Position numbers and translations under genes: made by a program. Positions 2,524-58,324 of a DNA stretch of 59,275 nucleotides are shown piece by piece (position 1 is the first letter of the stretch; each line of letters starts with the position of its first letter). The stretch comes from a virus (taxonomy: Duplodnaviria; Caudoviricetes). Location of the stretch: positions 1 to 59,275 of the IMG/VR virus record IMGVR_UViG_3300042860_000755; one strand, 5' to 3'. The notes under the pieces are model-generated. The model was not told the DNA's origin and did not search any database. It was given only the letters and a program-made list of their open reading frames with translations.

Positions 2524-2992
2524 GGCGCAGCACAACTTGATGGCGATGGTTGCAAATAACCCATCTGCCGCCAAGCGCAAAGGAATCCCTCAGTCTGTCG
2601 GTCAGGAGTTCATGAAGGCAGACAAGGGTCGGAGGTTTGGTTCTGGCAACCGCGCAGATGCGCAGGTAATCAACAGGCCCAAAACCAATCAAGGCAAGAT
2701 GGAACTTTTCTCAAGAGGTGGTGACATGAAAGAGTCGAAAGAGATGATGAAGAAGGAAGTGTCGTTCATGAAAAAGAAGGGTGCTCCAAAGTCCATGATC
2801 AAGCATGAGATGGCCGAGGCTGGCATGAAGAAAATGGCCAACGGCGGCATCACCAAAGCCAAGATGGGCGCTGTTCGCACTGCCGCTCCCAGCAAAGATG
2901 GTCTGGCCGCCAAAGGTAAGACCAAAGGCACCATGGTCAAGATGTCTGGAAGCAAGCCCCTGGGCATGAAAAAGGGCGGCTACGCCTGCTAA
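2507..2992 (+). CDS. Basic Met/Lys-rich protein, putative capsid-internal
   Basis: FSRGG, MANGG and MKKGG motifs plus KDGLAAKGKTKGTMV tag. Confidence 0.6.
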   Translation: MPSKSKAQHNLMAMVANNPSAAKRKGIPQSVGQEFMKADKGRRFGSGNRADAQVINRPKTNQGKMELFSRGGDMKESKEMMKKEVSFMKKKGAPKSMIKHEMAEAGMKKMANGGITKAKMGAVRTAAPSKDGLAAKGKTKGTMVKMSGSKPLGMKKGGYAC

Positions 2993-3004
2993 TTGGAGGC
3001 CGAC

Positions 3005-4051
3005 ATGGCTAAAAGACGTATTCGCGCAGCAGAGCTTGCGGGTTTGGCCGCGCTTGGCGCTTTTGGTTACAACTTCTTTGGCCCAGGGCGCGACAAAAAG
3101 GCTGGGGAAAGACGTGCTGACGTAGAGTATCGAGGGACTGATCGTCCGCCCGCAGAAAGTGTTGCAGCCGCCCCAGCAGCCCCCGCAGTTTCGACGGCCC
3201 CACAAGCTCAAAGACCTGTGGCCAGCGTTGATGACGGCGACATTGGCCGGTTTGCGGATGTTGGGTCCAACTTTAACGAAACTGGACAACCGTACAATCC
3301 TGTTGGGTCGTCTGCCACTTATCGTCCGCGCCCTCGCCCTCCTTTTGTCGCCGACGATTCTCAGCGCAGGGCTAATGCCGCTGCTGATGCGATGTACGAA
3401 AATCGCGCGTCTGCTAATCGGCGCACCAGTGTTGATCCCACCACTCTAGAGGGATATGGTGTAAACGAAGTTGGTCGTGGCAGGGCTCCCGTCTCGCGTG
3501 TTAATGCAAGCGCCCGCCAATACAACCAAGACAGCCAAGGGAATCGAGCAGGAACTCAAGCTGATGGCGGCCCGCCAATCACAGAAGAAATGCGTCGAAA
3601 CCCAGTCGCAAGGATTCCCGGTCAAGATGCCAGGGCACCTGAAGATGGTCGTCGCGTGACTGGCGGCAATATCTCAAGGAATCTTGCAAATATGGCGGCT
3701 GCCCTTGGTCCAACCAGGGCTGCCGGATTTGGTAATGCCGCAGTTGAGGCCGCAACTGCAAGGGGTGCCCTTCAAAGGGCTGCTGCTGCACGGGCGGAGC
3801 GAACAGAAGCTGCTCGTCGCGGTCAAACGCCAACCAACCTCACGAGCACAAAATCAAGTTCAACCGCCAGGACGAACGAAGCCTCCAAGCGGACAAGAAA
3901 GTTTGACGAAGACTCTGAGAACGTTGAGTTTAAACGTGGCGGGAAGACAAAGGCCATGCCAAAGAAGATGGCTTCTGGCGGCATGTCGTCTGCATCCAAA
4001 CGCGCTGACGGCATTGCCTCCAAAGGCAAGACCAAGTGCAAAATGTACTAA
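3005..4051 (+). CDS. Hypothetical low-complexity protein with N-terminal hydrophobic stretch and C-terminal tag
   Basis: GGAGG RBS before ATG 3005; ends SASKRADGIASKGKTKCKMY. Confidence 0.6.
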   Translation: MAKRRIRAAELAGLAALGAFGYNFFGPGRDKKAGERRADVEYRGTDRPPAESVAAAPAAPAVSTAPQAQRPVASVDDGDIGRFADVGSNFNETGQPYNPVGSSATYRPRPRPPFVADDSQRRANAAADAMYENRASANRRTSVDPTTLEGYGVNEVGRGRAPVSRVNASARQYNQDSQGNRAGTQADGGPPITEEMRRNPVARIPGQDARAPEDGRRVTGGNISRNLANMAAALGPTRAAGFGNAAVEAATARGALQRAAAARAERTEAARRGQTPTNLTSTKSSSTARTNEASKRTRKFDEDSENVEFKRGGKTKAMPKKMASGGMSSASKRADGIASKGKTKCKMY

Positions 4052-4060
4052 GGGCAAACC

Positions 4061-4288
4061 ATGTCAGAAAAACCCAGGAAACCCAAGCAAGTCTTGAACC
4101 CTGCTGAACAGCAAATGATTCAGGAGGAAAAGGACAAGCAGATGGCCCCCAAGCTGGAAAGTGCTTACAACAAGGCGCTGACCACCACGGTTCCCGCTCC
4201 CGCCCCGGTTGACAAAAAAGCCAAGGGTGGCGTCACTCGCGCCGACGGCTGCATCACTAAGGGCCACACCCGTGGCAAGATGGTGTAA
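4061..4288 (+). CDS. Small protein with the shared C-terminal tag
   Basis: Ends KAKGGVTRADGCITKGHTRGKMV. Confidence 0.6.
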   Translation: MSEKPRKPKQVLNPAEQQMIQEEKDKQMAPKLESAYNKALTTTVPAPAPVDKKAKGGVTRADGCITKGHTRGKMV

Positions 4289-4290
4289 AT

Positions 4291-4818
4291 ATGATGTCCA
4301 GCCGTGGCATGGGGGCCATCAACCCCAGCAAGATGCCCAAGAAGAAGGTCATCCATCGTAAGGATGACCCGAATACCGTGGACATGTACGCGGCTGGCGG
4401 CGAGGTGGAATCAAAATTTGAGCCGGTTAAACCAAACTATGGCATGAGAGCCATGGGTGGCTCTGGAGAGACTGGTTCCGGTGCTGGCGGACGGTTTACG
4501 GTTCAAAAAAATCTTGGCAAAGACCTTGACCTTGAGGCGTATCTGGAAGGTCAAGCGTTTAAACCAAAGGGTATGTCGCCTAAAGGTGAGATAACAGGTG
4601 GCGGAGTTAAATTGACCAAGAGGTTTGCCAAGGGTGGCAAGACAGAATCCAAGGTCAATCAGGCTGGTGTCTACACCAAGCCGGGTATGCGCAAGTCGCT
4701 GTTTGAGTCAATCAAGTCTCGGGCGGTGCAGGGCACAGGCGCAGGCCAATGGTCGGCCCGCAAGGCACAGTTATTGGCCAAGCAGTACAAAGCGAAAGGC
4801 GGTGGTTATCGTGGCTAA
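4291..4818 (+). CDS. Basic protein with an internal beta-strand cassette
   Basis: Conserved-looking ends (MSSRGMGAINPSK; GQWSARKAQLLAKQYKAKGGGY); cassette bounded by YAAGG and FAKGG. Confidence 0.6.
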   Translation: MMSSRGMGAINPSKMPKKKVIHRKDDPNTVDMYAAGGEVESKFEPVKPNYGMRAMGGSGETGSGAGGRFTVQKNLGKDLDLEAYLEGQAFKPKGMSPKGEITGGGVKLTKRFAKGGKTESKVNQAGVYTKPGMRKSLFESIKSRAVQGTGAGQWSARKAQLLAKQYKAKGGGYRG

Positions 4819-5326
4819 AAGAAAAGCTCTTGGAACACTTGCTGCCCTTGGTGCGCTTGGTGCCATAGGCGCGGCTGCGTCACGAGGGCGCTCGGCTTCA
4901 AATGGGCCCCGGAAATTGGTGCTTTCGGATAGTTCCGGTGGCAGGGAAGAAATCGACCCGTTTTACAGGGATGTCGCAGAGGACATAACCAGTAAGCCCT
5001 TAATGACCAGGGGAAAAACTGCGGCTCAAGTCGCAGAGATGGTAAGAAACCCCATTGGCCGTGAAGCGACAGATTCAGAAATGAGACGCATTGCCGATAT
5101 GGCGGAGCAGCTTCGCGGCAAGAAGTATGCTCGCACCGCAGCAGGAGCGCCAATTTTTACGGCGGACGGGGATGCCGTGCAGTTTGGTTCTAATAACCCC
5201 CAGCCGATGTATGGCATGAAAAAAGGAGGCAAAGTGTCGTCCGCAAAAAGCGGCAAAACTGCCTCTGCATCGAGGCGCGGAGATGGTATTGTTCAACGGG
5301 GTAAAACTCGCGGCAAGATGGTATGA
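4811..5326 (+). CDS. Hypothetical protein with the same architecture as 3005-4051
   Basis: Probable GTG start at 4811 (MAKRKALGTLAALGALGA); ends SASRRGDGIVQRGKTRGKMV. Confidence 0.55.
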   Translation: MAKRKALGTLAALGALGAIGAAASRGRSASNGPRKLVLSDSSGGREEIDPFYRDVAEDITSKPLMTRGKTAAQVAEMVRNPIGREATDSEMRRIADMAEQLRGKKYARTAAGAPIFTADGDAVQFGSNNPQPMYGMKKGGKVSSAKSGKTASASRRGDGIVQRGKTRGKMV

Positions 5327-5556
5327 AAGACCCGCAGCAATCGCTCAAGGACTGGGGTGACCAGAAGTGGCGCACCAAGTCCGGCAAACCGTCTTCCAAG
5401 ACGGGGGAGCGATATCTGCCTGAGAAAGCCATCAAGGCTCTCAGCCCAGCCGAGTATGCCGCTACGACTCGTGCCAAGCGGGCAGGCAAGAAGGCCGGGA
5501 AGCAGTTTGTGAAGCAGCCGCCCAAAGTGGCGGCAAAGACAGCAAGGTATCGGTGA
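5323..5556 (+). CDS. Small basic conserved phage protein
   Basis: QQSLKDWGDQKWRTKSGKPS...ERYLP; ATGA coupling to the upstream gene. Confidence 0.7.
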   Translation: MKDPQQSLKDWGDQKWRTKSGKPSSKTGERYLPEKAIKALSPAEYAATTRAKRAGKKAGKQFVKQPPKVAAKTARYR

Positions 5557-6923: not shown

Positions 6924-7091
6924 ATGATGGACGCAAAGAAGGCAGTGCATAAGCACGAAAAGGCCATGCACCCCGGCAAACCCATGACCAAGATGCGTGC
7001 TGGTGGCAAGACCAACAGCGACATGCTCAAGATGGGCCGCAATATGGCCAAGATTGCCAACCAGAAGTCCCCTGGCCGCAAAGGAGCCTAA
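6924..7091 (+). CDS. Small basic protein
   Basis: AGGAG RBS; contains MRAGG. Confidence 0.55.
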   Translation: MMDAKKAVHKHEKAMHPGKPMTKMRAGGKTNSDMLKMGRNMAKIANQKSPGRKGA

Positions 7092-22924: not shown

Positions 22925-25066
22925 ATGAGCCTTCAACAAGCCGCCCAGTACTTGGCAGCGCAGGGGCGTGGCCCCGACACAATGCTTGTTCACATGACCC
23001 CTCGGGAGGTTGCTGGACTCGATGAGCTTGCAAGAGCTTATTACGGTCGGTCGTTGCCCACCAACCCAAAGACTGGCCTCCCAGAAGCAAACTTCCTTAA
23101 AAAAGTTGCGCTTCCTATGTTGGCTGGCGCTGTTTTGGGGCCCGCTGGGTTTGGTTTAACTGCTGGGCAAGCGGCTTTGACGGCGGGCGCAATCCGTGGT
23201 GCCACCTCTGGCAGTCTTGAGAAGGGTATTGCGTTTGGTCTTGGTGCTTATGGTGGCGCGGGGTTGTCCGGTGCTCTGTTGAATACGGGTACGCAAATGG
23301 CGGCAAACACTGCCGTTGCCGGAGACCTTGGGGCCGCAGCCGGAGATTCTGCTCTAACCGCTACGCAAGCAGCGCAAGCGGCAAAAGCTTCTCCTCTTTC
23401 GACTATGGGCCAAGGGGCTAAGGGTCTCTTTGAGAAAGAAGGTCGAGATATATTCATGAAGGAAGCTGGCGGCCTCTCCGGGCTCTCCCAGTACGGCATG
23501 GCAGCCGCTGCCCCGGCGCTGATGGCCCCACAAACAACCACGCCCATGCCCACATCAAATGGCGTGAGGCGGCAGTACTATTCATTTGACCCCGGTCGCA
23601 GACAAGACCCCGAAGCAGGTTACACGGGGCCAAGGTCTGGAGAGCGCACGTACTTCAACCCCACGTTTAGACGCCTCCCAGAACCAGGGATGGCTGAAGG
23701 CGGATCAACAAGCCGATTCAGTGGAAATGCATATTTAAACAACCTTGCGCGGCAGTCTGTTCCAAGCCCGACAGCCGGGCTTACTCCTCTTGAAAAACCA
23801 TTTGAAAGCGAAGAGGAGCATGAGTACATTTACGACCCGATTACTCAACGTTTTAGACGCGCCAAAAAACCAAAAAAACAAGATGACAACAAGCTTGGCA
23901 GTTCAGTGAGCGACCAATTTCCTCCCTTGGATACTGGTGGCGGGATCGGTACTGGCATGGATTCAGGTAGTACGCTTGGCGATTTTGGCCACAGCATGGG
24001 CGATGCCGGTGTTGGCGCAATTAGTCTTGGTCAGGGGTTGTCTGCACTTGGGGTTGGGCTTGGGTTTAACGCGGGGGCGACTGGAAGTGGGCGCGGGGGT
24101 TGGGGGGATGCAATATCAAATTACGGCATCGACCAGCTTGGCAGAGCAGAGGCTCAGGCTGCTGCTGACAGCACCGCGTATGGCCGAGGGCCAACTGGGG
24201 ACGCTGCTGCCGCCGCCGCCGCTGCTGCTGGTTACGCTGCCGCTGATGCCCAAGCCGGGGATGCAGCTTTCGGGGGTGCAAGTTTTGGCAATACCGCTGC
24301 AAGTAACAACACCGCAGGATTGAGTGCTGCTGCTGGTGATTCTAATGCTAGTACCAGTGGCACCAGGGGGTTAGGGTCGAGTACTGGCAACACTGCGGGC
24401 CTGGGCAATGCCGCTGCGAGTAGCAACAACGCAGGATTAGCTGCTGCCCTCGCTGCCGCAGAGATAAGCGCGGCAATGGATGCAGCATCTGCGCAGGCGG
24501 CGGCAGATCAAGCCGCTGCTGCTGCTGCTGCTGAGTCGATGGGTAGTGCCTTGGCGGCAGATCAAGCTGCTGCCGCTGCTGATGCCGCTGCCGATGCCGC
24601 CTCCGCCGATGCTGCCGCTGGTGCGGCGGGTGCTGCCGCTGGCGCTGATGCGGGCTCTGGCTTGGGGTATGGTGGTGATGGGTATGGTGGCACTGGGGAT
24701 GGTAGCGGGGGTTTTTACGCCGAGGGTGGCACTATTAACCGCAACATGGGCGGCATCAGTTCTTATGCTGGCGGCGGCTACAACCTCGGGGACTACTCTG
24801 ACGGCGGCAGGCTGCTGCGTGGCCCTGGTGATGGGGTGTCCGACTCCATCCCTGCGGTGATTGGTCAGAGGCGTCCTGCGCGGCTTGCTGATGGCGAGTT
24901 TGTTATTCCGGCCCGCATCGTCTCTGAGCTTGGGAATGGATCAACTGAGGCGGGCGCTCGTAAGCTTTACGCCATGATGGATCGCGTGCAGCGGGCGCGT
25001 GGAAAAACCACTGGTAAGGGCAGGGTGGCCAAGAATACCCGTGCCGACAAATACTTGCCCGCATAA
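22925..25066 (+). CDS. Internal virion / ejection protein
   Basis: Gly/Ala-rich; C-terminal GPGDGVSDSIPA..LADGEFV motif as in tape-measure proteins; poly-Ala tract. Confidence 0.6.
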   Translation: MSLQQAAQYLAAQGRGPDTMLVHMTPREVAGLDELARAYYGRSLPTNPKTGLPEANFLKKVALPMLAGAVLGPAGFGLTAGQAALTAGAIRGATSGSLEKGIAFGLGAYGGAGLSGALLNTGTQMAANTAVAGDLGAAAGDSALTATQAAQAAKASPLSTMGQGAKGLFEKEGRDIFMKEAGGLSGLSQYGMAAAAPALMAPQTTTPMPTSNGVRRQYYSFDPGRRQDPEAGYTGPRSGERTYFNPTFRRLPEPGMAEGGSTSRFSGNAYLNNLARQSVPSPTAGLTPLEKPFESEEEHEYIYDPITQRFRRAKKPKKQDDNKLGSSVSDQFPPLDTGGGIGTGMDSGSTLGDFGHSMGDAGVGAISLGQGLSALGVGLGFNAGATGSGRGGWGDAISNYGIDQLGRAEAQAAADSTAYGRGPTGDAAAAAAAAAGYAAADAQAGDAAFGGASFGNTAASNNTAGLSAAAGDSNASTSGTRGLGSSTGNTAGLGNAAASSNNAGLAAALAAAEISAAMDAASAQAAADQAAAAAAAESMGSALAADQAAAAADAAADAASADAAAGAAGAAAGADAGSGLGYGGDGYGGTGDGSGGFYAEGGTINRNMGGISSYAGGGYNLGDYSDGGRLLRGPGDGVSDSIPAVIGQRRPARLADGEFVIPARIVSELGNGSTEAGARKLYAMMDRVQRARGKTTGKGRVAKNTRADKYLPA

Positions 25067-25086: not shown

Positions 25087-27585
25087 ATGGCTGAAGCAAC
25101 GCAAACCTCAATTTCAGACTTGCCGGAATGGGCCAGAGGTTATGGCCCGCAACTATTGGGGTTGACAGAAGCTGTTGCATTCCAAAAGCAATACAACCCC
25201 GAAACCAAGCAGTACGACATCGTCGGACCCTCGGAGTATCAAAAATATGGCGGGGAGAGGATTGCGCCATTCTCTGGTTTGCAGGAGAAGGCGTTTGAGC
25301 GTGCTGGCGAAATGGGGACTTCGTCGCAGCTTGGTTCGGCAACAACAGATACCCAGACCGCCATAAACAAGGCGCTCGGCACAAGTTATGACCCGTATCA
25401 GATGGGTCAGTTTACTGCGAGTACTGCCGCGCAGTACATGAATCCGTTTGTTGAGGCGGCGATGGCACCCCAGCTTCGGGAAGCCCAACGCTCCTCAGAA
25501 ATGCAGCGCATGTCCGATCAGGCCCAGGCGGTTCGATCTGGTGCATTTGGCGGCAGCCGTCAGGCGATTGTTGAAGCCGAGCGGCAGCGCAATCTGGGGA
25601 TGCAGCAGGGGGACATCCGCGCCCGTGGGTATCAAACTGCTTTTGATCAAGCCCAGCAAAATTTTGCCCGTGAGCAGCAGCTTCGTGAGCAGTCCCGCCA
25701 GTACGGTGCTGGCCTGGGTATGCAGGGCATCGGACTTGGCTTGCAGGGCGCTGGTCTTATGGGTCAGCTTGGTCAGGCACAGTTTGGCCAGGGCAGAGAC
25801 ATTACGAACTTGCAGGCGCAGCTTGGCACCCAGCAGCAGCAGGTTGGACAGCTAGACCTGAACCAGAAGTATCAAGACTTCCTGAACCAGCAGCGGCATC
25901 CGTACCAGCAGTTGGAGTTCATGTCGAACATGTTGCGCGGCACCCCAATGGGCACTGTCAACACAATGTACGCCCAGCCGCCCAGCACATTGGGTCAGAT
26001 TGCTGGCCTTGGCACTGGCTTTCTTGGTTTCGGACAAGCCGCAAGAATGTTTGGCAACAAAGAGGGCGGCCAAGTCAAAGAGTATGCCGATGGCGGCAGT
26101 GTCACCAGCGACTACAACATCGACAACATCATTGACAGGCTCAGTGACGCTCAGTTGCAGCAAGCCCGCATGGCGGCCATCAACAACAAGGATATGCGCC
26201 GCCTTCAGGCCATTGACGAGGAGTTGGCAGAACGAGCATCGGTGCGATCCGGTCTTGGTGGTGCGTTTAACTCGCTGCCGGAAGAAACCCAGGAGTCTGT
26301 CACCAACATGGCCGAGGGTGGCATCGTTGCCTTTGCCGGACCAAACGAAGCCAACAACTACAACCTTGTCGAAGACCCTCAGTTCGGCGGTTCGTCTTCT
26401 GGTTCGGCAGATATGGATCGGCTTCGGATTGAATCTGAACGCGCTCGCCGTGCAGCGCAAGAGCATGAGGCGCGGATGAAATTTTTGAGGGAATCAGCCC
26501 CAGAAACTTATCAGCGACTGCTGACAGAGCAGCCAAATGCGCCTGCTCAGACTGCTCCCGCTCGGGTCGCTCCAGCGCAGGCTCCACGCACCGCCCAGGC
26601 CGCTCCTCAAGCCGCAAGGCGTGATGAGCCTCGCAGATCAGCAACCATCACGAGGCAAGAAGCCAGGAGTGCGGTTGAGACAATTGCTCAGGGAAACAAT
26701 GTTGAAATCCCCAAGGATGACACAAAGGAACTTACTGAACAGTTCATGAAAGAGTTCAGCGCCAAGTCAGCGCCTGAGCGAGCAGAAGTTAAGGCCGACT
26801 TGGAGAAGGCCAAAAGCCGTGCCAAAGAGATTGAGGCTCGGGGCATTGGTGAGGCAATGATGAGGTTTGGCTTTGGTATGGCCGCAGCAGCTTCAAAACC
26901 CGGAGCGGGTACTGGGCTGGGTGGGGCGCTTAGATCAGCAGCGGCAGCCTCTCCAATCTTTGCGGAGTCTCTGGCGGAAACCAATAAGCTCAAGCAAGCG
27001 GCAGAGGACAACTACACCAAGCTGCGCATGGAGAACAGGCGTTATGAGAACGCCCTTGATCAAGGCAACATGCAGCTTGCCTCCAGCTTGGCAAACAACA
27101 TCAACCAGCGCAAGCTTGCCCAGGCAAACCTTGAGCGTCAGATTGTTCAGCAAGACCGCCTGTTTGAGTTGGAAAAGCAAAAGGCAGCTTTTGCACGGTC
27201 GCAGGCTGGACGCCCTGGATCATCCCTGGAGATGGCCTACAACGTCCTTCGTGCTGACCCCAAAAACAAGGACAAGAGCAATTCCGATCTGCTTGAAGAC
27301 GCCGCAAGAAAGGTTGGCTTCGCATCCAACTATCGCACAGATGTTTCAGCGGACATCAGGCGTCAAGACCAGTTGCGCAAAGATTTGGGTGAAAACATGG
27401 AATACAAAAAGTTGGGAGTTCAAATGGCCACCGCAAAAACACCAGAAGAGCGTTTGTCCATCCAGCAAAGAATGAATGTCATTGAGGCAGATGCCGCTAG
27501 GAAAATTGGTATTCAGCCCAGCGGTGGTGTAGGATCGCCCACTCAAGTCTATCGGTTTGACTCAAAAGGCAACCCTATTCAATGA
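25087..27585 (+). CDS. Internal virion / ejection protein
   Basis: Gln/Ala-rich helical protein with YMNPF and GAFGGSR motifs typical of podovirus DNA-transfer proteins. Confidence 0.6.
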   Translation: MAEATQTSISDLPEWARGYGPQLLGLTEAVAFQKQYNPETKQYDIVGPSEYQKYGGERIAPFSGLQEKAFERAGEMGTSSQLGSATTDTQTAINKALGTSYDPYQMGQFTASTAAQYMNPFVEAAMAPQLREAQRSSEMQRMSDQAQAVRSGAFGGSRQAIVEAERQRNLGMQQGDIRARGYQTAFDQAQQNFAREQQLREQSRQYGAGLGMQGIGLGLQGAGLMGQLGQAQFGQGRDITNLQAQLGTQQQQVGQLDLNQKYQDFLNQQRHPYQQLEFMSNMLRGTPMGTVNTMYAQPPSTLGQIAGLGTGFLGFGQAARMFGNKEGGQVKEYADGGSVTSDYNIDNIIDRLSDAQLQQARMAAINNKDMRRLQAIDEELAERASVRSGLGGAFNSLPEETQESVTNMAEGGIVAFAGPNEANNYNLVEDPQFGGSSSGSADMDRLRIESERARRAAQEHEARMKFLRESAPETYQRLLTEQPNAPAQTAPARVAPAQAPRTAQAAPQAARRDEPRRSATITRQEARSAVETIAQGNNVEIPKDDTKELTEQFMKEFSAKSAPERAEVKADLEKAKSRAKEIEARGIGEAMMRFGFGMAAAASKPGAGTGLGGALRSAAAASPIFAESLAETNKLKQAAEDNYTKLRMENRRYENALDQGNMQLASSLANNINQRKLAQANLERQIVQQDRLFELEKQKAAFARSQAGRPGSSLEMAYNVLRADPKNKDKSNSDLLEDAARKVGFASNYRTDVSADIRRQDQLRKDLGENMEYKKLGVQMATAKTPEERLSIQQRMNVIEADAARKIGIQPSGGVGSPTQVYRFDSKGNPIQ

Positions 27586-48784: not shown

Positions 48785-49018
48785 TTAAACGCGCCGCGCA
48801 TAGTTGACTGCGCTGCGCAGGTTGTTGAATGTATTGGCCCTCAGTGGGCCGTCTGTCGTCTTGATGTAGACCGAGAATGCCAGCCCATCAAAGGCGATGT
48901 ATCGCTCCCCGTGGCCCAGGTATCGCTCATCATCGACTAGGTCAACGATGCCGTCGAGGGCGTATGCTTGTTTTAAAAACACGGGGTGCCGGTTTGTCAC
49001 TGCTCTGATGGTTCTCAT
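48785..49018 (-). CDS. Hypothetical protein
   Basis: ATGA-coupled to the vWA gene. Confidence 0.55.
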   Translation of the reverse strand: MRTIRAVTNRHPVFLKQAYALDGIVDLVDDERYLGHGERYIAFDGLAFSVYIKTTDGPLRANTFNNLRSAVNYARRV

Positions 49019-50589
49019 GCGGCCAGCTTGATCTGCTTGAACGACACTGTGCCCAGGTCGCCAACGTCAGTGATCCGCACCGACTGCGGGTAGACATTTG
49101 CAACGTCCTGCTCGATGCCGATGCCGATGGTGGTGATCCCCAGGTTATTGCCTGCCAAGCATTGCTGCCGCACTGCCATAGGCTTGCCGATGCCATCGGT
49201 GATGACAAAGCAAATCTTGCGCTGCTCGGGCCGACTGAGCAGCAGCTTGTGGGCATACCGCACCGCAAAGTAGTCGTTGGTTGACCCGCCGTTGCAAATG
49301 CTGTTGATCTTTGCCGCAGCCTTGAGCGAGTGTTCTCCCCAGGGCTTGACCACTGAAGTGAACGAACCAAAGGCAAGGACGCAGGTCTCGACCTGGGCCT
49401 TTTGCAAAGTATCCAGCAGCGCCCGGGTTGCCATAGCAGCCTGGACGATGCGGTTGCTCATGTCGTACCTTTTATTTTTCTTGCCGTCATCAAACATCGA
49501 GCCCGAAACATCGAGACAGATCACCACCGCAGAGTCGATCCCCTCGACCGCATGGCGGCGCTGGAACAGCTTGTCAGTGGTGCCGATCTTGTGCAGGGCC
49601 GAGACATTGATGGAGCCAGACCGACGGTTGCGCTGGAAGTCCTCGCGCCCAGAGTTGTCGAACAGGCGCTTGACCTCATACCGCAGCCGCGCAGGCACCG
49701 CCAGTTGATCGTTGAGCCAGTGATGCCGCAGGTGATGATTAGGCTCAGTCAGCGTGGCATTCTCAGACCATCCCCCGATGCCAGCCTTGCCCTCGGGCAT
49801 ATTGATGGAGGGTTCGACCTCGACTGCCTCGTCAGATTTTTTAGGAGCCCGAGCAGAGCCGGGGCTTTTGTGCGGGTTGTCGTCGAGCCTGGAGCCCTTA
49901 TCGGCCTTGCCTGCACCCTCACCCTTGCCGTCATCAGATGGAGCCTCTGAGGGGCTTTTGGGAGCCTTGGCGGGGCTGTTTTTGGGCAGAGCCTGGAGTT
50001 GATCCATGATCCACTCAGCCAGGGCCAGCGTGTCCTTGGATGAGCGGCAGGCATCAATCCGCTGAGTCGCGCCGATGATGACGGGCTCCAGGCCAGCAGG
50101 CACCGGGACATGGGTGTTCAGATGCCGCCGCAGGTAGACCGCGAAGATAAACGGGTATTGAGCAGGGTCTGCCCAATCAGTCACCGTGGCATTGGCCTCG
50201 CCAACGATCTGATCCAGCAGCGCCGTCAGCAGCCCATCGATGTTGCCGGTCAGCTTGGCATCGATCCCGGTGTGCTCGATCCATGCATCCTCGACCGCAT
50301 TGTGCAGTTGGTTGACGTACTGGTCACCATGATTGACGTTGAAGTTGGTATATTTTTGATGCAGCAGTTCATGTACCACAAACCCGACATAGCGCTGAAC
50401 GTCAATGTCGTAAAGCACTGCATCATCAGCAACGTCAGCGAAGTAAATGTCGCCGTCCTTGTTGGTGCCTGCGGTCTGAATGCCTGCATGCCAGTTGATG
50501 GTTCTGATGGCTGCACCAAACTCGGCTGCAACCTTGCGCGTCAAATTTTCAACTGCCTGTTTAAACTGGAACCCGTGATAGCGTTTCAT
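49015..50589 (-). CDS. CobT-like vWA protein with N-terminal HExxH domain
   Basis: VHELLH...NAVED; MIDAS DVSGS, GGST, VITDG. Confidence 0.8.
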   Translation of the reverse strand: MKRYHGFQFKQAVENLTRKVAAEFGAAIRTINWHAGIQTAGTNKDGDIYFADVADDAVLYDIDVQRYVGFVVHELLHQKYTNFNVNHGDQYVNQLHNAVEDAWIEHTGIDAKLTGNIDGLLTALLDQIVGEANATVTDWADPAQYPFIFAVYLRRHLNTHVPVPAGLEPVIIGATQRIDACRSSKDTLALAEWIMDQLQALPKNSPAKAPKSPSEAPSDDGKGEGAGKADKGSRLDDNPHKSPGSARAPKKSDEAVEVEPSINMPEGKAGIGGWSENATLTEPNHHLRHHWLNDQLAVPARLRYEVKRLFDNSGREDFQRNRRSGSINVSALHKIGTTDKLFQRRHAVEGIDSAVVICLDVSGSMFDDGKKNKRYDMSNRIVQAAMATRALLDTLQKAQVETCVLAFGSFTSVVKPWGEHSLKAAAKINSICNGGSTNDYFAVRYAHKLLLSRPEQRKICFVITDGIGKPMAVRQQCLAGNNLGITTIGIGIEQDVANVYPQSVRITDVGDLGTVSFKQIKLAA

Positions 50590-50597
50590 GATTTACC

Positions 50598-52034
50598 TCA
50601 AATGTTGTCGTTGAAAAAGTCAATGTTGATGCAGGCATCGAAGATGCCCATCAGCGTGGCGTGAGATTCGACGGGTTGCCGAGCAACGACAGTGGTCGTC
50701 CAAGCCTCACGCAGGGGCAGCACTTGTATTGCCCTGGCAAAGGCAATCGCCGAGCGAATCGAGGGTGCGTCCACAATGTCGGCACTCTTGACCTTGTGCC
50801 GTGCAACCTCGATGGCGTGGTGGATAGCCATGGCGATAGCCTTGTTGCAGCCAGCGCGGCGGGTGATAGCCTCGATCTCAGAGTCCTTTGGCAGGTAGTC
50901 AAACTGGATCACCCGAGAGAAACGATCCACCAGGGCACTGTTCTGCATCCGGGTGCCGGCGTGTCTACCACTGTCGTCACCATTGCCAAAGGTGTTATCG
51001 GCAACGAAAACCAGCACCCCCTCGGCGCGGGTATGGGTAAGACCACCAAACGATACGGCGGCGTTGGGCTCCAGAAAACCATTCAGCGTTGCCAGTTCGC
51101 CAGGGTCAGCGTTGGTGACCTCATCCAGCAGGATGACGGTCGAGGGCATGGCATAGGCCAGCAAAAAGTCTTTTGGCTGGAACACCGTCTTGTTGTTCTC
51201 AAAGCCAGTCGCTCCGACATACTCTTCGACGGTTGTGTGCTTGTGGAAGTTGATGCGTTTAAACCCGCGTCCGGTACGGGCTGCAAACTGTCGGGCAGTC
51301 TCAGACTTGCCGGTGCCCTTCTCGCCGCCAAACCAAAGGTTCTCGCCCGTCCAATCAGATAGCAGCAGGTGCTTGAGAATGCCCTCAGTCCAGATGAAAT
51401 CGGGGTCTACCGCCGGGGCTTGGGGGTGGTTCCACAGGTCAACCATCAGCGGCTGACCCTTAACATCGAAAACATCGATGCCGAAAACCTCAAGGCAGGT
51501 CTTGCTGCTGGTGCGGTGCGCGGCGGTCTGGTCGGCCACAACCTGTTGGGCACCCGCATCCTCGATGCGTTTAGACCAGCGTGAAAAATGGTCGCCGATT
51601 ATTGCGTCCACTGCTACCTTAATGCTACGGTCATCAATCTTGATGCCTTTGATCTTGTCGGTCAGTGTGTTGGCCTTGTGCTCGACGCGAGCCATTGTCT
51701 GGATCACTGCGCTGATGTTAGCCTGGAGGTCATCGACCCGATTGAGGGCCGACAGGGCATCGGCTTTGGCATCAGATGCAACCTGCGAGGCGGCATCAAC
51801 CTTGGCACCGATGGCGGGGTCAAAGGTCGGCGCGGCCTTGAAGACCGATGGGGTTGCGGCCATGATGTTGTTCATGCTGATGGTTCCAGCATCGACCGCC
51901 TCGGCCAGCCAGCGGCTTGCATCGGTCTTGGTTATCCCGGCCTGTGGGTTGGGGTGGTATTGGTTATAGGCACCTGCCACAACGGGCAGGGGCAGACGGG
52001 CGATCTGGATGACGATCTGGGAGAGGTTTGCCAT
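50598..52034 (-). CDS. MoxR/CobS/CbbQ-like AAA+ ATPase
   Basis: Walker A GEKGTGKS, Walker B ILLDE, ALVDRF, PSIR. Confidence 0.85.
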   Translation of the reverse strand: MANLSQIVIQIARLPLPVVAGAYNQYHPNPQAGITKTDASRWLAEAVDAGTISMNNIMAATPSVFKAAPTFDPAIGAKVDAASQVASDAKADALSALNRVDDLQANISAVIQTMARVEHKANTLTDKIKGIKIDDRSIKVAVDAIIGDHFSRWSKRIEDAGAQQVVADQTAAHRTSSKTCLEVFGIDVFDVKGQPLMVDLWNHPQAPAVDPDFIWTEGILKHLLLSDWTGENLWFGGEKGTGKSETARQFAARTGRGFKRINFHKHTTVEEYVGATGFENNKTVFQPKDFLLAYAMPSTVILLDEVTNADPGELATLNGFLEPNAAVSFGGLTHTRAEGVLVFVADNTFGNGDDSGRHAGTRMQNSALVDRFSRVIQFDYLPKDSEIEAITRRAGCNKAIAMAIHHAIEVARHKVKSADIVDAPSIRSAIAFARAIQVLPLREAWTTTVVARQPVESHATLMGIFDACINIDFFNDNI

Positions 52035-52052
52035 GATTCACTTTCGGTTGGG

Positions 52053-52628
52053 TTACAGGGAGAGGGTATCGCCACAAGGGCAGGTGGGCAGACCTTGCGC
52101 TGCCCATTTGGTGGACAGGCGCACGGTATACCCGCAGGAGGGGCACTCGGCCTTGAGCATTCGAGTGGTTTGCTTTTTCAGTTGTCGGTCAGACTTCAAC
52201 TCGGCATGGGGGTAGTCGCCCAGGCTGGTGATGATGGCAGCGTAGACCGCCAAAAAGTCAGCATCCCCAACAGTTGACTTCCAAGGTTGACGGCCCGAGC
52301 CAGTGGCCTGGAGGTGCATGGCGGCGGCGATCTTTTGGAAGTTGACCCCATGGTTGAATGCGCCGGCAGTGGCATGGCACAACTCATGGATCAGCACTTC
52401 GAAGACCTTGACGGGGTCAGCCAGCTTGGGATGCACCAAAATCTCAAAGGTGCCATCTGCGCTGGCGGTGTTGATCCAGCACTCACCGATAGCACCCGAC
52501 CGCAGGGCGGTGGACGGGAAGCCGCAAGAGACCCGCACCTTGGCAGGCAGGGGCTTGCTGTACAGGTCGAACAGGGGCCGGACTTCCTCGACTCCGGCAC
52601 TGAGCCATTCTTCACGGGTTGAATACAT
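52053..52628 (-). CDS. SprT-like zinc metalloprotease with Zn ribbon
   Basis: LIHELCH...HG..F; CPSCGY...CPC. Confidence 0.75.
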   Translation of the reverse strand: MYSTREEWLSAGVEEVRPLFDLYSKPLPAKVRVSCGFPSTALRSGAIGECWINTASADGTFEILVHPKLADPVKVFEVLIHELCHATAGAFNHGVNFQKIAAAMHLQATGSGRQPWKSTVGDADFLAVYAAIITSLGDYPHAELKSDRQLKKQTTRMLKAECPSCGYTVRLSTKWAAQGLPTCPCGDTLSL

Positions 52629-54787: not shown

Positions 54788-54844
54788 CCTGATAGACTGC
54801 GATGCGAACGGTGGTTCAGGTTTAAACGGTGAAGGGGTGATGCG

Positions 54845-55540: not shown

Positions 55541-55735
55541 ACGGGGGAGTGGCATCAGTGATGGCTGGGAGGGAGGGAGAGACACCCCCACCCCCCGCTT
55601 TGGCAGATGGGTCCCCCTCCTCGCCTTACGCTCGATTCCACTCATCCGATCATCCCCAAACACAAACGTTCGCACCCACCCCCATCCATTTCCAATTCCC
55701 AACCCCCACCCCTATATATTTTTGAAATTACTGAC

Positions 55736-55779
55736 TTGCAAACGTTCGCTATTGTGTTTAAACTTTGTTTGGTTTAAAC
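55736..55779 (+). promoter_or_regulatory. Putative sigma70 promoter with two GTTTAAAC sites
   Basis: TTGCAA-17 bp-TAAACT; GTTTAAAC at 55756 overlapping the -10 and at 55772. Confidence 0.55.
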
Positions 55780-55794
55780 GCGGATTGTTTAAGG

Positions 55795-55986
55795 ATGATT
55801 GATTACGCCCACCCCACGATGATGGCTGAGAAGGCTTTGAGGGAGCTTCATGAGGCGATGCTTGCTCGCAGGTTTGAGGATGCGCGTCAGGCGGCTTTGC
55901 GGTGCATGGTTGAGTGCAAGATTGCGTACCACAGCATTCGGGTGATGGAAGAGGAATATGTCAGCAAAGCATCAACTCGTGCTTGA
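55795..55986 (+). CDS. Hypothetical protein
   Basis: MIDYAHPTMMAEKAL; helical. Confidence 0.55.
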   Translation: MIDYAHPTMMAEKALRELHEAMLARRFEDARQAALRCMVECKIAYHSIRVMEEEYVSKASTRA

Positions 55987-56188
55987 TTTCATCCGGGCGT
56001 ACATTCGGCTTCATGGGATGTCTCCTTCTTACCAGACGATTGCTTCTGGTGTGGGGATGAAGTCAAAGGCGAATATTCACCGGATCATCCATAAGTTGCA
56101 GGATGAGGGGCTTTTGACTATTCGCCCCTACAAGTTCAATTCGATCAAGTTGATTGACCGCAGTGCTCGTGAGGTGTCTGCTCTATGA
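55958..56188 (+). CDS. LexA-like winged-helix DNA-binding domain protein (no peptidase domain)
   Basis: VLDFIRAYIRLHGMSPSYQTIASGVGMKSKANIHRIIHKLQDEG. Confidence 0.75.
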   Translation: MSAKHQLVLDFIRAYIRLHGMSPSYQTIASGVGMKSKANIHRIIHKLQDEGLLTIRPYKFNSIKLIDRSAREVSAL

Positions 56189-57693
56189 CGTTGCTGACCC
56201 GGCAGGAGATTGATGACTATGAGGGGATGATTCCTCTGGTTGGGCTGGAGCAGCGCAGGAAGATACAGAAGCTTTTGGAGTTGGACAAGCGGGAGAGGTG
56301 CCGGGAGTCCTTCATCTTCTTCGTGTCGCAGATGTGGCCTGTGTTTATTTCGGGCAAGCATCATCAGATCATGGCTGATGCTTTTGAGAGGGTGGCCAGG
56401 GGTGAGTTGAAGAGGTTGATCATCAACATGCCGCCCCGGCATACGAAGTCGGAGTTTGCTTCTTACCTGCTCCCGGCTTGGTTTCTTGGGATGTTTCCTG
56501 AGAAGAAGATCATCCAGACCGCCCACACCGCAGAATTGGCTGTTGGTTTTGGCCGGAAGGTGAGGAACTTGGTCTCGTCCAACGAGTACCAGAAGGTCTT
56601 TCAGACGGAACTTTCTTCTGATTCCAAGGCTGCGGGGCGGTGGAATACCTCTGTTGGGGGTGATTACTTCGCCATCGGTGTTGGCGGTGCTGTCACGGGT
56701 AAGGGCGCTGATCTTTTGATCATTGACGACCCGCATTCTGAGCAGGAAGCCAAGCAAAACAACCCCGCCGTCTACCACGGGGTCTATGAATGGTACACAT
56801 CCGGCCCCCGGCAGCGTCTTCAGCCTGGGGGTTCAATCATTATTGTGATGACGCGGTGGTCAAAAATAGATTTGACCGGCCAAGTCATGAAAAATTCGGA
56901 AAAAGACGGCACAGATGCGTGGGAAGTCATCGAATTTCCCGCAATTTTGCCCTCCGGAACCCCTCTTTGGCCCGGATTTTGGAAAAAAGAGGAGCTTGAA
57001 GCCATCAGGGCTGAGATTCCAGTGTCCAAATGGAATGCTCAGTACCAACAAAACCCCACATCCGAAGAAGGCGCTATCGTCAAGCGCGAGCAATGGCAAA
57101 TTTGGGAGTCAGAAATGCCCCCGCCATGCGAATACATCATCCAGTCCTGGGATACAGCCTTTGAAAAACACAACCGCGCAGACTACTCTGCATGTACTAC
57201 GTGGGGAGTGTTTAAACATCCCGATTCCAAGGGCAACTACAAGACAAACATCATCCTTCTTGACGCCTTCAAGGACCGAATGGAGTTTCCTGAACTCAAG
57301 GCCAAGGCCATTGAGATGTACAAGGAGTGGAACCCAGACACCCTGATCGTTGAAAAGAGGGCCGCTGGTGCCCCTTTGATCTACGAGCTTCGCCAAACCG
57401 GCATCCCTCTTTCAGAGTACACACCAAGCAAGGGACAGGATAAGATTGCGCGTGTAAACGCAATTTCAGACCTGTTTGCGTCTGGCGTGGTCTGGTGTCC
57501 AGATACCCGCTGGGCCGATGAACTCATGGAAGAGATGGCCGCGTTCCCTAATGGCGACCATGATGACTTGGTTGACTCGGCGTCACAGGCTCTTTTGAGG
57601 TTCAGGCAGGGCGGATTCATCCCAATCGACTCGGATGAGCCCGAAGAGACGATTTATTTTCGCGGTCGCAAAGATCGCTTCTATACCGTGTGA
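56185..57693 (+). CDS. Terminase large subunit
   Basis: INMPPRHTKS, LLIIDDP, MTRW, AQYQQNP, QSWDTA, HDDLVD. Confidence 0.95.
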   Translation: MTLLTRQEIDDYEGMIPLVGLEQRRKIQKLLELDKRERCRESFIFFVSQMWPVFISGKHHQIMADAFERVARGELKRLIINMPPRHTKSEFASYLLPAWFLGMFPEKKIIQTAHTAELAVGFGRKVRNLVSSNEYQKVFQTELSSDSKAAGRWNTSVGGDYFAIGVGGAVTGKGADLLIIDDPHSEQEAKQNNPAVYHGVYEWYTSGPRQRLQPGGSIIIVMTRWSKIDLTGQVMKNSEKDGTDAWEVIEFPAILPSGTPLWPGFWKKEELEAIRAEIPVSKWNAQYQQNPTSEEGAIVKREQWQIWESEMPPPCEYIIQSWDTAFEKHNRADYSACTTWGVFKHPDSKGNYKTNIILLDAFKDRMEFPELKAKAIEMYKEWNPDTLIVEKRAAGAPLIYELRQTGIPLSEYTPSKGQDKIARVNAISDLFASGVVWCPDTRWADELMEEMAAFPNGDHDDLVDSASQALLRFRQGGFIPIDSDEPEETIYFRGRKDRFYTV

Positions 57694-57700
57694 GGAATAG

Positions 57701-58324
57701 ATGGATTACGACACGATTTTGAAAGCTGTTGGAGAGGAGCCGGAGTATTTGTTCCGCACTTCGCGGGGGTCTGCCTATGGTCATTACCCCGACAGCAGCA
57801 CGGTGCGCAACAGGTCGGGAGAAGGCCATAAAGACACAACCACCGGCCTGCAACCCCGTTCTGGCAAAACCGTTTACATGAGCCCGCAGGATGTAAACCG
57901 GATGGCAGGGATGTTCCAAAACGCGGAACTTGCGACGCAGTTTAAACCGTCGTCTTTCAACAAAGAGACGAAGAGCGGCACTGCGGCACTGACCTACGCG
58001 CAAGACTACGGCCCAAAAAAAGCGGGCACCGTCATTCATGAGGCGCAGTTCACCACAGTCCCCAGGAAGGGGCTAATCCCAGTTGAGATTAACCGCAGCG
58101 AAAGCCCAATAGGCGATTCTGGTCGAGGCATACATTGGGGGACTCCAATCACAGAAGTTGTGCCTAGAGGTGGCATGGGACGGGGTGTAGTTGGAACTCC
58201 GGCCCAGATGGGCGGCGGCGCTGGAAGCACCATACGCGCTTTAAACCTACAGAAATTAATGGCTGCTGGCGGCGCTGTAAAGATGCCCGATTCCTACAGC
58301 CAGGGTGGCTGGAAACTTATTTAA
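57701..58324 (+). CDS. Hypothetical protein between TerL and portal
   Basis: GAGG RBS; ends MAAGGAVKMPDSYSQGGWKLI. Confidence 0.6.
   Translation: MDYDTILKAVGEEPEYLFRTSRGSAYGHYPDSSTVRNRSGEGHKDTTTGLQPRSGKTVYMSPQDVNRMAGMFQNAELATQFKPSSFNKETKSGTAALTYAQDYGPKKAGTVIHEAQFTTVPRKGLIPVEINRSESPIGDSGRGIHWGTPITEVVPRGGMGRGVVGTPAQMGGGAGSTIRALNLQKLMAAGGAVKMPDSYSQGGWKLI

What the first reader, a model, noticed from the sequence alone, without database searches (positions are those of the whole stretch)
2707..58310. Recurrent [MYF]-x-x-G-G motif in basic and ejection proteins: candidate processing signal
Seen: FSRGG, MANGG, MKKGG (2507); FKRGG, MASGG (3005); YAAGG, FAKGG (4291); MKKGG (4811); MRAGG (6924); MAEGG, YAEGG, YAGGG, YSDGG (22925); YADGG, MAEGG (25087); MAAGG, YSQGG (57701). 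It often marks a change in composition. Established: FAxGG followed by GP..SD.IPA.L..GEFV occurs in tape-measure C-termini, and some tape measures are proteolytically matured. Inference: a shared cleavage or docking motif that turns these ORFs into polyproteins.
Basis: partly seen in the sequence, partly recalled or inferred. Interest (0 to 1): 0.7.

Follow-up and report, generated by a model that had tools for sequence, protein, structure and literature searches.

The report
Shared glycine motif in phage internal proteins
A short motif (bulky residue, two residues, Gly-Gly) really recurs in this phage's small basic head proteins and DNA-ejection proteins, where it opens portable peptide modules, above all a widespread, undescribed C-terminal tail; nothing shows that it is a cleavage site.

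Summary
All 17 listed [MYF]xxGG instances are present. The excess is specific to the spacing: 26 observed against 12.0 expected in 34 virion-module ORFs, reached by 0 of 1000 shuffles, and no other offset exceeds z 2.4. Homologues keep the motif in position.

The motif is the leading element of portable modules.
- In the small basic proteins between the capsid and adaptor genes it opens a roughly 30-residue tail. The tail core is G-x4-G-K-T, then five residues, then the C-terminus. 7,579 cluster representatives match the tail profile, and no library names it.
- In the ejection proteins, copies of Phi-A-x-GG sit at module junctions. These are a gene split or fusion point, a 67-residue indel bounded by two copies, and the start of an about 90% conserved C-terminal region.

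The GG is nearly invariant. The bulky residue at -3 is a 76-84% preference.

Docking or anchoring is my preferred reading (0.45). Cleavage is not supported: I found no protease gene, copies stand in tandem at 8-13 residues, and the tail is strictly C-terminal. No proteomic data exist, so cleavage is not excluded (0.2).

The parts
2507..2992 (+). Small basic protein (161 aa, pI 10.5). Motif copies FSRGG 2708-2722, MANGG 2834-2848, MKKGG 2966-2980. Internal tail core DGLAAKGKTKG at 2897-2929. Ends GG-YAC.
   Evidence: All three copies are kept in all 14 homologues shown. The N-terminal 42 aa match phrog_16759/22033.
3005..4051 (+). Ala/Pro/Arg-rich basic protein (348 aa from ATG 3005). C-terminal cassette: FKRGG 3929-3943, MASGG 3968-3982, tail core 4007-4039, C-end 4048.
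   Evidence: 831 proteins match the last 57 aa at E<=0.01, on several unrelated N-terminal bodies. Profile search.
4061..4288 (+). 75-aa protein ending in the same tail (core 4244-4276). It is preceded by KAKGG (4217-4231), a copy without a bulky residue at -3.
   Evidence: The G004 homologue has FAAGG at this place.
4291..4818 (+). 175-aa basic protein with YAAGG 4387-4401 and FAKGG 4624-4638. The stretch between them (about 4402-4638) is a 67-aa insertion that short homologues lack.
   Evidence: in L092, L120, L108, L088 and L098, residues 1-44 join directly to 111-174. phrog_17747 covers residues 116-174.
4811..5326 (+). 171-aa basic protein (GTG start). MKKGG 5216-5230, tail core 5282-5314, C-end 5323.
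6924..7091 (+). 55-aa basic protein with MRAGG 6993-7007.
   Evidence: Of the 14 homologues shown (52 HSPs in 52 loci), 10 have LRAGG, 3 MRAGG and 1 MKAGG at this place. In other phages this family starts with the tail core at its N-terminus.
22925..25066 (+). Ejection-module protein E1 (713 aa, Gly/Ala-rich). MAEGG 23690-23704, then the array YAEGG 24716-24730, YAGGG 24764-24778, YSDGG 24794-24808, which opens the conserved C-terminal region 24794-25063.
   Evidence: 57 of 59 distinct upstream 40-mers hold [MFY]xxGG. AF2 gives no autonomous fold.
25087..27585 (+). Ejection protein E2 (832 aa; residues 49-326 match phrog_4287). It is a fusion of two ORFs that are separate in relatives. YADGG 26083-26097 lies at the fusion point. 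MAEGG 26308-26322 is the first half of the double motif M-A-x-GG-I-V-A-F.
57701..58324 (+). 207-aa protein between terminase and portal. C-terminal double copy MAAGG 58259-58273 and YSQGG 58295-58309.
   Evidence: The one distant homologue (L016, 28% identity) keeps MAMGG...YRAGG at its C-end. The gene is absent in G004.
2064..2318 (+). DUF6321 protein (84 aa) of the same basic gene cluster, ending ...RAWNC. Homologues in other phages continue with ADGG-YV..ADGCATKGKTKGRMV, which is the tail.

Best explanation
Phi-[A/K]-x-G-G (Phi mostly M, F or Y) is a real short linear motif. It recurs because it is the leading element of small portable peptide modules that are shuffled among proteins carried inside the virion.

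Module A is a tail of about 30 residues: Phi-K-K-GG, 4-9 residues, S-A-S-K-R-A-D-G-[I/C]-A-x-[K/R]-G-K-T-[K/R]-[G/C]-[K/R]-Phi-Phi-COOH. In this window it tags four small basic proteins encoded between the capsid and adaptor genes, three at the C-end and one, in 2507, internal and extended. Related phages carry 1-5 tagged proteins each.

Module B is a single or double copy in the ejection proteins (M-A-x-GG-I-V-A-F-x-x-GG). It sits at the junctions between conserved parts.

I infer that the motif works without cleavage, as an anchor and turn. The bulky side chain docks into a pocket and the two glycines allow the tight turn that presents the following peptide. On this view the tail is a common tether that loads and holds these disordered basic proteins in the head. 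The partner would be the inner capsid surface or another conserved head component, or the phosphate backbone of the packaged DNA.

Shown: the motif, its conservation, its modular context, the strict C-terminal geometry and the link with one head type. Inferred: docking, the identity of the partner, and the absence of cleavage.
For: - Spacing-specific excess, and enrichment confined to virion-module proteins in six genomes.
- Tail module, first search: 831 proteins at E<=0.01. The unrelated bodies are seen among the 120 listed.
- Tail module, profile search: 7,579 representatives at E<=0.001 and 1,641 at E<=1e-10. In the 150 best, the match ends at the last or next-to-last residue in 149.
- G-x4-G-K-[ST] is present in 117 of 120 and 144 of 146 stored hits. 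Exactly five residues follow the T in 264 of 266.
- At least one [MFY]xxGG lies in the last 45 aa of 146 of 146 stored hits, and two copies in 128.
- In IMG/VR loci, 160 of 210 distinct tails have [MFY]xxGG upstream and 199 of 210 have a GG. The gap to the tail core is mostly 6-9 residues. 157 of 210 tails end within 5 aa of the stop.
- One protein (P0259) carries two whole units in tandem, each starting with MKKGG.
- All 19 loci with at least 5.5 kb of upstream sequence have the same capsid type, at 80-99% identity. G002, with another capsid type, has no tail.
- Junction role in the ejection proteins.
- Neither the tail nor the E1 C-terminal region folds alone in AlphaFold2 (pLDDT 60.0 and 53.5). 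This fits peptides that order only on a partner.
- The window's tail copies share only short, 70-89% similar DNA stretches, so selection acts on the protein.
Against: - No partner is identified, and the one complex test I set up (tail against capsid protein) could not be run.
- The link with the capsid type may reflect common descent only. The 80 loci are the best matches, so they are close kin.
- G002 keeps the motif in its ejection proteins without the tail. The two contexts may therefore not share a partner or a function.
- A low AF2 confidence is weak evidence for disorder, because the alignments are shallow in diversity.
- Tails in the loci were found with a pattern I wrote, which biases the counts. 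Searches do not depend on that pattern.
- Nothing excludes cleavage in addition to docking.
Confidence: 0.45

Rival explanations
1. Processing signal: a phage or host protease cuts at or beside Phi-xx-GG. This would turn the basic proteins and ejection proteins into smaller products, for example releasing the 20-25-residue basic tails, much as the core proteins of some eukaryotic DNA viruses are matured at GG-X sites.
For: - The motif lies at module junctions.
- The 25087 gene is split into two ORFs just after the motif in G001, G003, G005 and G002.
- 22 of 23 short complete forms stop 7-25 aa after the last copy.
- The 67-aa indel in 4291 is bounded by two copies.
- phrog_17747 stand-alone proteins start about where FAKGG ends.
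- In 2 of 79 E1 homologues (L003, L060) a HINT-like self-cleaving domain ends (..SHN) immediately before the first motif copy, so a released C-terminal piece is plausible there. The PT-HINT scores are E 5.5e-5 and 1.4e-4, both below Pfam's cut-off.
Against: - No protease family was found in 65 window ORFs, in 10 pieces of the polyvalent protein or in relatives' head modules. The exception is a weak SprT-like hit in the early region.
- Tandem copies lie 8-13 residues apart.
- The residue at -3 is replaceable by K, R, A or G in 16-24% of homologues.
- There is no conserved residue after GG.
- The tail plus motif behaves as one conserved unit at a fixed distance from the C-terminus.
- The bulky residue is one position further from GG than in the (M/I/L)-x-G-G sites that I recall for adenovirus protease.
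Confidence: 0.2
2. The motif is only a structural turn, with no shared partner or signal. On this reading Phi-xx-GG is the turn or cap of small homologous modules that spread by duplication and shuffling, and the recurrence reflects common descent of those modules. The tail itself could be a simple nucleic-acid-binding peptide.
For: - The copies in 2507, 2993, 4061 and 4811 belong to clearly homologous tails.
- The double motif M-A-x-GG-I-V-A-F recurs as a unit in different ejection proteins.
- The proteins are strongly basic, with pI 9.8-10.9.
- The invariant tail core fits the phosphate-binding pattern G-x4-G-K-[ST].
Against: - Non-specific charge binding does not need the near-invariance seen over thousands of clusters, nor the fixed five residues to the C-terminus.
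- The motif also occurs in acidic contexts (Phi-A-[D/E]-GG in the ejection proteins, pI 5.3-6.5) that lack the tail.
Confidence: 0.3
3. Chance or composition: Gly-rich, low-complexity proteins produce the pattern by accident.
For: - Several carriers are Gly-rich (17% Gly in 22925 and 4291).
- Single-protein tests are mostly not significant on their own.
- The 9 extra matches in fibres, terminase and other ORFs are at background level.
Against: Composition-preserving shuffles and the offset control reject it. The motif is conserved in position in distant homologues.
Confidence: 0.03

Closest known systems
T4 capsid targeting sequence of internal proteins (recalled; a T4 head review, PMC3012670, was seen only as a search listing)
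   Same: One short portable peptide is shared by several otherwise unrelated proteins that end up inside the head with the DNA.
   Different: The T4 tag is N-terminal, has no Gly-Gly, and is removed by the prohead protease. Here the tag is C-terminal, no prohead protease was found, and removal is not shown.
Maturation of basic core proteins at (M/I/L)-x-G-G-X or G-G-X sites by adenain-like cysteine proteases in adenovirus and African swine fever virus (recalled, not tested against any record)
   Same: Small basic DNA-associated virion proteins carry a bulky residue a few positions before Gly-Gly.
   Different: The spacing differs by one residue. No cysteine protease of that clan was found. Tandem copies and the C-terminal unit do not fit a site between products.
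DNA-binding protein J of Microviridae (recalled)
   Same: A small, very basic internal protein whose C-terminal end anchors it to the inner capsid surface while the basic part binds DNA. This is the mechanism I propose for the tail.
   Different: No sequence relation was tested. J is a single protein of a ssDNA virus. Here a whole set of proteins of a tailed dsDNA phage shares one tail.
Polyvalent proteins of phages (Iyer et al. 2017, PMC5512222; passages read through 'find')
   Same: Modular, shuffled, virion-delivered proteins. The window has a 3045-aa member (ART-PolyVal, LPD38). DUF6321 and the 2507 N-terminal module occur fused to larger virion proteins elsewhere.
   Different: The passages shown attribute processing to a metallopeptidase domain, and the word 'glycine' has 0 occurrences in the main text. 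The window's polyvalent protein has only one background-level match to the motif.
Portable N-terminal tag on ejection proteins noted earlier in this scan (e1-5947769; that note compares it with the P22 gene 7 leader)
   Same: Strongly conserved short tags that assort independently of the body of podophage ejection proteins.
   Different: A different tag at the other terminus. It shares only 6 of 149 short words with the E1 C-terminal region. I did not check it.

Membership tests
GG-X / (M/I/L)xGG-X viral core-protein cleavage sites (adenain-like) | Bulky residue at P4 directly before x-G-G | tested here: not met
   The excess is at -3 from the first G (P5 if cut after GG). The offset that would fit P4 (-2) gave 8 against 12.0, z -1.2. 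The consensus itself is recalled.
GG-X / (M/I/L)xGG-X viral core-protein cleavage sites (adenain-like) | A cognate cysteine protease encoded by the virus | tested here: not met
   No peptidase family among 34 + 31 window ORFs or 10 pieces of the 3045-aa protein. The window lacks the stretch between portal and capsid, but that stretch in G004 and Pag-Yong1 shows none either.
GG-X / (M/I/L)xGG-X viral core-protein cleavage sites (adenain-like) | Cleaved products in virions | not testable with these tools
   No proteomic data were found for any relative.
Double-glycine leader peptides (C39 peptidase substrates) | N-terminal leader ending in GG, plus a C39 peptidase/ABC exporter | tested here: not met
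   The copies are internal or C-terminal. There is no C39 or ABC transporter hit.
T4-type capsid targeting sequence | N-terminal position and removal by a prohead protease | tested here: not met
   The tail is C-terminal in 149 of 150 best matches. No prohead protease was found.
P-loop NTPases (Walker A) | G-x4-G-K-[ST] pattern | tested here: met
   117 of 120 and 144 of 146 stored tail proteins.
P-loop NTPases (Walker A) | The pattern is embedded between a beta strand and a long helix of an alpha/beta domain | tested here: not met
   Only five residues follow the T (264 of 266). There is no fold in AF2 and no Pfam hit. The tail is therefore not a member; at most it is a phosphate-binding loop.
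RTX-type Ca-binding nonapeptide repeats (considered because one record labels the E1 relative 'calcium-binding') | GGxGxDxUx repeated many times | tested here: not met
   Copies are 2-3, spaced 8-13 residues apart, with no conserved Asp at repeat position 6. No Pfam hit. The consensus is recalled.
Polyvalent proteins (Iyer 2017) | Many effector domains in one virion-delivered polypeptide | tested here: met
   This holds for ORF 27593-36730 only: ART-PolyVal (3 stretches) and LPD38. It does not carry the motif above background.
HINT / pretoxin-HINT self-cleaving domain (in the L003 and L060 homologues only) | Cys at the start, His-Asn at the end, match to the family profile | tested here: inconclusive
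   Cys start and SHN end are seen. PT-HINT scores 23.9 and 22.5 bits against a cut-off of 27.7.

The most novel reading that the evidence does not exclude
These podophages may pack a set of disordered basic 'core' proteins that are all loaded through one C-terminal tether built around a Walker-A-like phosphate-binding loop, and that are then trimmed at the Phi-xx-GG copies. That would be a tailed-phage counterpart of the protease-matured DNA-condensing core proteins of adenovirus. The same motif would serve as the handle by which the ejection proteins are lined up for exit.
Probability: 0.1. Interest if true: 0.8.

Novelty: new variant of a known kind. Interest (0 to 1): 0.5.

Why it matters
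How tailed phages without a prohead protease select and hold the proteins that travel inside the head is poorly understood outside T4, P22 and T7.

A tag of about 30 residues is shared by 1-5 proteins per phage and by thousands of protein clusters in freshwater and marine viromes. It has no Pfam, PHROG or NCBIfam name. It offers a concrete, testable handle on that question.

If the tag is sufficient for loading, it could also be used to load foreign proteins into capsids.

For annotation, the tag identifies a large class of 'hypothetical' small basic ORFs as likely head-internal proteins. It also shows that a 'tape measure' label in Caulobacter phage records marks an ejection-module protein.

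Tried and rejected
- Complex prediction (tail alignment A2 against capsid alignment A3) was not available.
- AlphaFold2 of the E1 C-terminal 150 aa (59-sequence alignment) and of the 57-aa cassette (48 sequences) gave pLDDT 53.5 and 60.0 with no fold. I therefore ran no fold search.
- Sequence search of solved structures with 22925 and 25087: 0 matches at E<=1.
- Lenient Pfam (E<=10) and NCBIfam (E<=1) scans of the modules gave nothing meaningful.
- ESM Atlas gave only unnamed viral clusters.
- tblastn of the 45-aa tail against cultured phages found no match, probably because of the low-complexity filter.
- Six literature searches found no paper on the motif, the tail, or proteomics of relatives.
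- A link to the polyvalent protein is rejected: it has 1 match against 1.9 expected.
- Recent DNA duplication as the source of the window's copies is rejected: the repeats are short and 70-89% similar.
- Internal translation starts as the reason for the Met is rejected: F, Y and L occupy the same alignment column.
- A resemblance of the tail to basic ribosomal-protein tails came to mind, but Pfam gave no support and I dropped it.

Full report
WHAT THE WINDOW IS

The window is a whole IMG/VR virus record: linear, 59,275 nt, rated 97% complete by CheckV. It is a short-tailed phage.
- It has SU10-type adaptor and portal matches, a Mu-gpT/Phage_capsid_4 capsid, a large terminase, S74 fibres, a lysozyme and a 3045-aa polyvalent protein (ART-PolyVal, LPD38).
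- The record is cut inside the portal and capsid genes, so the stretch between them is missing.
- The nearest cultured relatives by DNA are Planktothrix phages Pag-Yong1 and Pra-JY27, Synechococcus phage MinM2 and the lake MAG DSL-LC04.
- A cluster of small, strongly basic ORFs lies between the capsid gene (ends 846) and the adaptor genes (5553, 7290). They start at 2064, 2507, 3005, 4061, 4291, 4811 and 5323, and 6924 lies between the adaptors. Their pI is 9.8-10.9.
- Downstream of the fibres lie virion proteins 19541 and 21476. Then come three ejection-module genes: 22925 (here E1), 25087 (E2) and the polyvalent 27593.

THE OBSERVATION

Shuffling each protein (composition kept) over 58 ORFs gives 26 observed against 13.8 expected, reached in 0.3% of 2000 shuffles.

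The spacing control is more telling. In 34 virion-module ORFs, M/Y/F at -3 from GG occurs 26 times against 12.0 +/- 3.3, and 0 of 1000 shuffles reach that. The 13 other offsets stay between z -1.2 and 2.4.

Non-virion ORFs of the window have no match, against 2.9 expected in the greedy ORF set.

In six related genomes, virion-module homologues hold 98 against 48.5 (z 7.0). The rest hold 45 against about 40.7. The genomes are kin, so this is not six independent tests.

CONSERVATION IN HOMOLOGUES

E1 (22925). 609 of 617 matched IMG/VR stretches encode a relative, and 79 loci were kept.
- The bodies are hypervariable. The last 95 or so residues are about 90% conserved, with 60 invariant columns in 59 sequences.
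- That region starts with YSDGG and is preceded by one to three further copies about 10 residues apart.
- 57 of 59 distinct upstream 40-mers hold [MFY]xxGG, and 59 of 59 do with a wider hydrophobic set. Ala is at -2 in 87 of 167 GG.
- Distant relatives keep the arrangement: Pag-Yong1 has YAEGG before GPGDGMSDDIPA. Caulobacter phage GB2A has MARGG before GPGTGRSDSI...SDGEYV and ends ..YMDGGRV.

E2 (25087). Of 61 distinct homologues, 58 could be judged, and 48 have [MFY]xxGG after the hydrophobic Gly-rich segment.
- Of the other ten, nine carry the same x-[A/K]-x-GG with K, R, A, G or L at -3, and one is cut.
- Twenty-three complete short forms exist, and 22 of them stop 7-25 residues after the last copy.
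- Long forms go on with more copies, including a double motif M-A-x-GG-I-V-A-F-x-x-GG.
- In G001, G003 and G005 the gene is two ORFs, split just after the first copy. The second ORF carries the double motif at residues 88-125. In G002 only the second ORF was read, and it carries the double copy at 113-125.
- The window's 832-aa protein is thus a fusion, and YADGG sits at the seam.

4291. Five homologues join residues 1-44 directly to 111-174. The window's extra 67 residues begin right after YAAGG and end with FAKGG.

Other families. 2507 keeps all three copies in the 14 homologues shown, and 6924 keeps [L/M]RAGG. The one distant homologue of 57701 keeps the C-terminal double copy.

THE TAIL MODULE

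In 3005, 4061 and 4811 the last motif copy is followed, after a few residues, by S-A-S-K-R-A-D-G-[I/C]-A-x-[K/R]-G-K-T-[K/R]-[G/C]-K-M-[V/Y] and the stop codon. In 2507 the same unit is internal and extended.

The last 57 residues of 3005 find 831 proteins at E<=0.01. The 120 listed all end with the tail, attached to at least six unrelated kinds of body. None has a name or a Pfam domain.

A profile of 48 tails finds 7,579 representatives of 50%-identity clusters at E<=0.001, and 1,641 at E<=1e-10. The best 150 proteins listed are 53 to 407 residues long. In 149 of them the match ends at the last or next-to-last residue (my reading of the table).

Stored hits have:
- G-x4-G-K-[ST] in 117 of 120 and 144 of 146;
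- exactly five residues after the T in 264 of 266;
- at least one [MFY]xxGG in the last 45 residues in 146 of 146, and two in 128;
- a C-terminal Cys in 85 of 146.

In 80 IMG/VR loci I found 210 distinct tails with a pattern of my own, which biases these counts. There are 1-5 genes per locus. 157 tails end within 5 residues of the stop, and 42 have a short extension that often reads M-x-x-GG-x-C. Eleven are at the N-terminus of the 6924 family. 160 have [MFY]xxGG upstream and 199 have a GG, with a gap of mostly 6-9 residues.

The unit therefore starts with the motif. P0259 has two whole units in tandem, each beginning MKKGG. DUF6321 proteins of other phages carry the tail too.

All 19 loci with enough upstream DNA have the window's capsid type at 80-99% identity. 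G002, with another capsid, has no tail but keeps the motif in its ejection proteins.

IS IT A CLEAVAGE SIGNAL?

Points in favour:
- The junction position, the gene split, the indel and the short forms, as described above.
- In two of 79 E1 homologues a HINT-like domain (Cys start, SHN end) ends directly before the first copy. The PT-HINT scores are E 5.5e-5 and 1.4e-4, below the Pfam cut-off. That suggests the C-terminal piece can be a released unit in those two phages.

Points against:
- No protease was found. Pfam and PHROGs on 65 window ORFs, on ten overlapping pieces of the polyvalent protein and on the head modules of G004 and Pag-Yong1 show only a GroES-like protein, a scaffold-like protein and unknowns between portal and capsid.
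- The one protease-like hit is a SprT-like ORF at 52056-52628 on the minus strand, E 1.9e-4 and below cut-off. It lies in the early region beside AAA_5 and VWA genes.
- Copies 8-13 residues apart would yield tiny fragments.
- The residue at -3 can be replaced, and the residue after GG is not conserved.
- In the basic proteins the motif and tail form one unit at a fixed distance from the free C-terminus.
- The polyvalent-protein paper (PMC5512222, read by 'find') ascribes processing to a metallopeptidase domain. The word 'glycine' has 0 occurrences in its main text.
- I found no proteomic study of any relative.

Cleavage is therefore unsupported but not excluded.

MOST LIKELY MECHANISM

The strict C-terminal placement and the near-invariance on unrelated bodies point to a docking tag. 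So do the several tagged proteins per phage, the gene position next to the capsid gene, the basic charge and the failure to fold alone (pLDDT 60.0 and 53.5).

In this reading the bulky residue is an anchor and the Gly-Gly allows the turn. The G-x4-G-K-T loop could bind phosphate, and so DNA. It is not a P-loop NTPase, because only five residues follow it and no domain surrounds it.

In the ejection proteins the acidic variant (Phi-A-[D/E]-GG-[I/V]) may play the same anchor role at module junctions. A common partner for both contexts is an inference. The planned test (tail against capsid protein) could not be run.

COMPARISON WITH KNOWN SYSTEMS

The tail works like the T4 capsid targeting sequence or the C-terminal anchor of the microvirus J protein. 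Both comparisons are recalled, not tested. It is a member of neither: it sits at the other terminus, no protease is present, and no sequence relation is known.

It resembles adenain-type GG sites only loosely, because the spacing is off by one and no protease is present.

That fits the general picture, but I did not check it.

VERDICT

The tail family is large and unnamed in Pfam, PHROGs and NCBIfam. My six literature searches found no description. I rate it a new variant of a known kind (portable tags of virion-internal proteins), interest 0.5.

Noticed in passing
window 4007-4048, 4244-4285, 5282-5323, 2897-2929: The invariant core of the C-terminal tail fits the Walker-A pattern G-x4-G-K-T, always five residues from the C-terminus (264 of 266 stored homologues). 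It is too short and too terminal for an NTPase, and may be a phosphate-binding loop.
   Followed up: partly
L003:277-2484 and L060:3349-6285: Two of 79 homologues of the 22925 protein carry a HINT/intein-like domain (Cys start, ..SHN end, no nucleophile after it) inserted just before the motif array and the conserved C-terminal region. The PT-HINT matches are below Pfam's cut-off.
   Followed up: partly
window 2966-2989; loci L109, L128, L137, L141 and others: A second terminal element: after the tail many proteins add M-x-x-GG plus 1-4 residues ending in Cys. 85 of 146 best tail proteins end in Cys. In the tail itself a Cys sits either in D-G-C or in K-T-K-C, as if one spatial position were kept.
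   Followed up: no
window 25087-27585: This 832-aa ejection protein is a fusion of two ORFs that are separate in G001, G003 and G005 (in G002 only the second ORF was read). Short first ORFs end with a conserved P-A-G-L-A-D-L-A-I-Y-N-M-G tail that the fused form lacks.
   Followed up: partly
window 49015-52628 (minus strand): An operon-like trio in the early region: a SprT-like ORF (weak, below cut-off), an AAA_5 ATPase and a VWA-domain protein.
   Followed up: no
window 27593-36730: A 3045-aa polyvalent protein with three ART-PolyVal stretches and LPD38. About 1,500 N-terminal residues have no family match.
   Followed up: partly
G004 (L094-L097): 58-1180 against 63041-64088, and 1939-3299 against 64841-66198: The 66-kb contig carries two diverged copies of the basic-protein/adaptor region at its two ends. 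This looks like an assembly joining two strains or a concatemer, so its motif counts are inflated.
   Followed up: no
Phage records OL906435.1, OQ594354.1, PP438419.1: Three GenBank records with different host labels (Planktothrix, Synechococcus, Planktothricoides) have the same length (65,014 nt) and gave the same match values. They may be the same phage genome.
   Followed up: no
L106 (Caulobacter phage GB2A) 4459-6201: The gene labelled 'tail length tape measure protein' is a homologue of the window's 22925 protein, and a homologue of the 25087 N-part follows it. The label is probably wrong.
   Followed up: partly
window 22925-23134: The N-terminal 60 or so residues of the 22925 protein (..GPDTMLVHMTPREV...TNPKTGLPEA..) are also conserved in many homologues with hypervariable middles. 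This is a second conserved end of unknown role.
   Followed up: no
window 57701-58324: An extra 207-aa gene between terminase and portal. It is absent in G004 and matched a single distant homologue in the DNA I held. It has no family match and ends in a double motif copy.
   Followed up: partly
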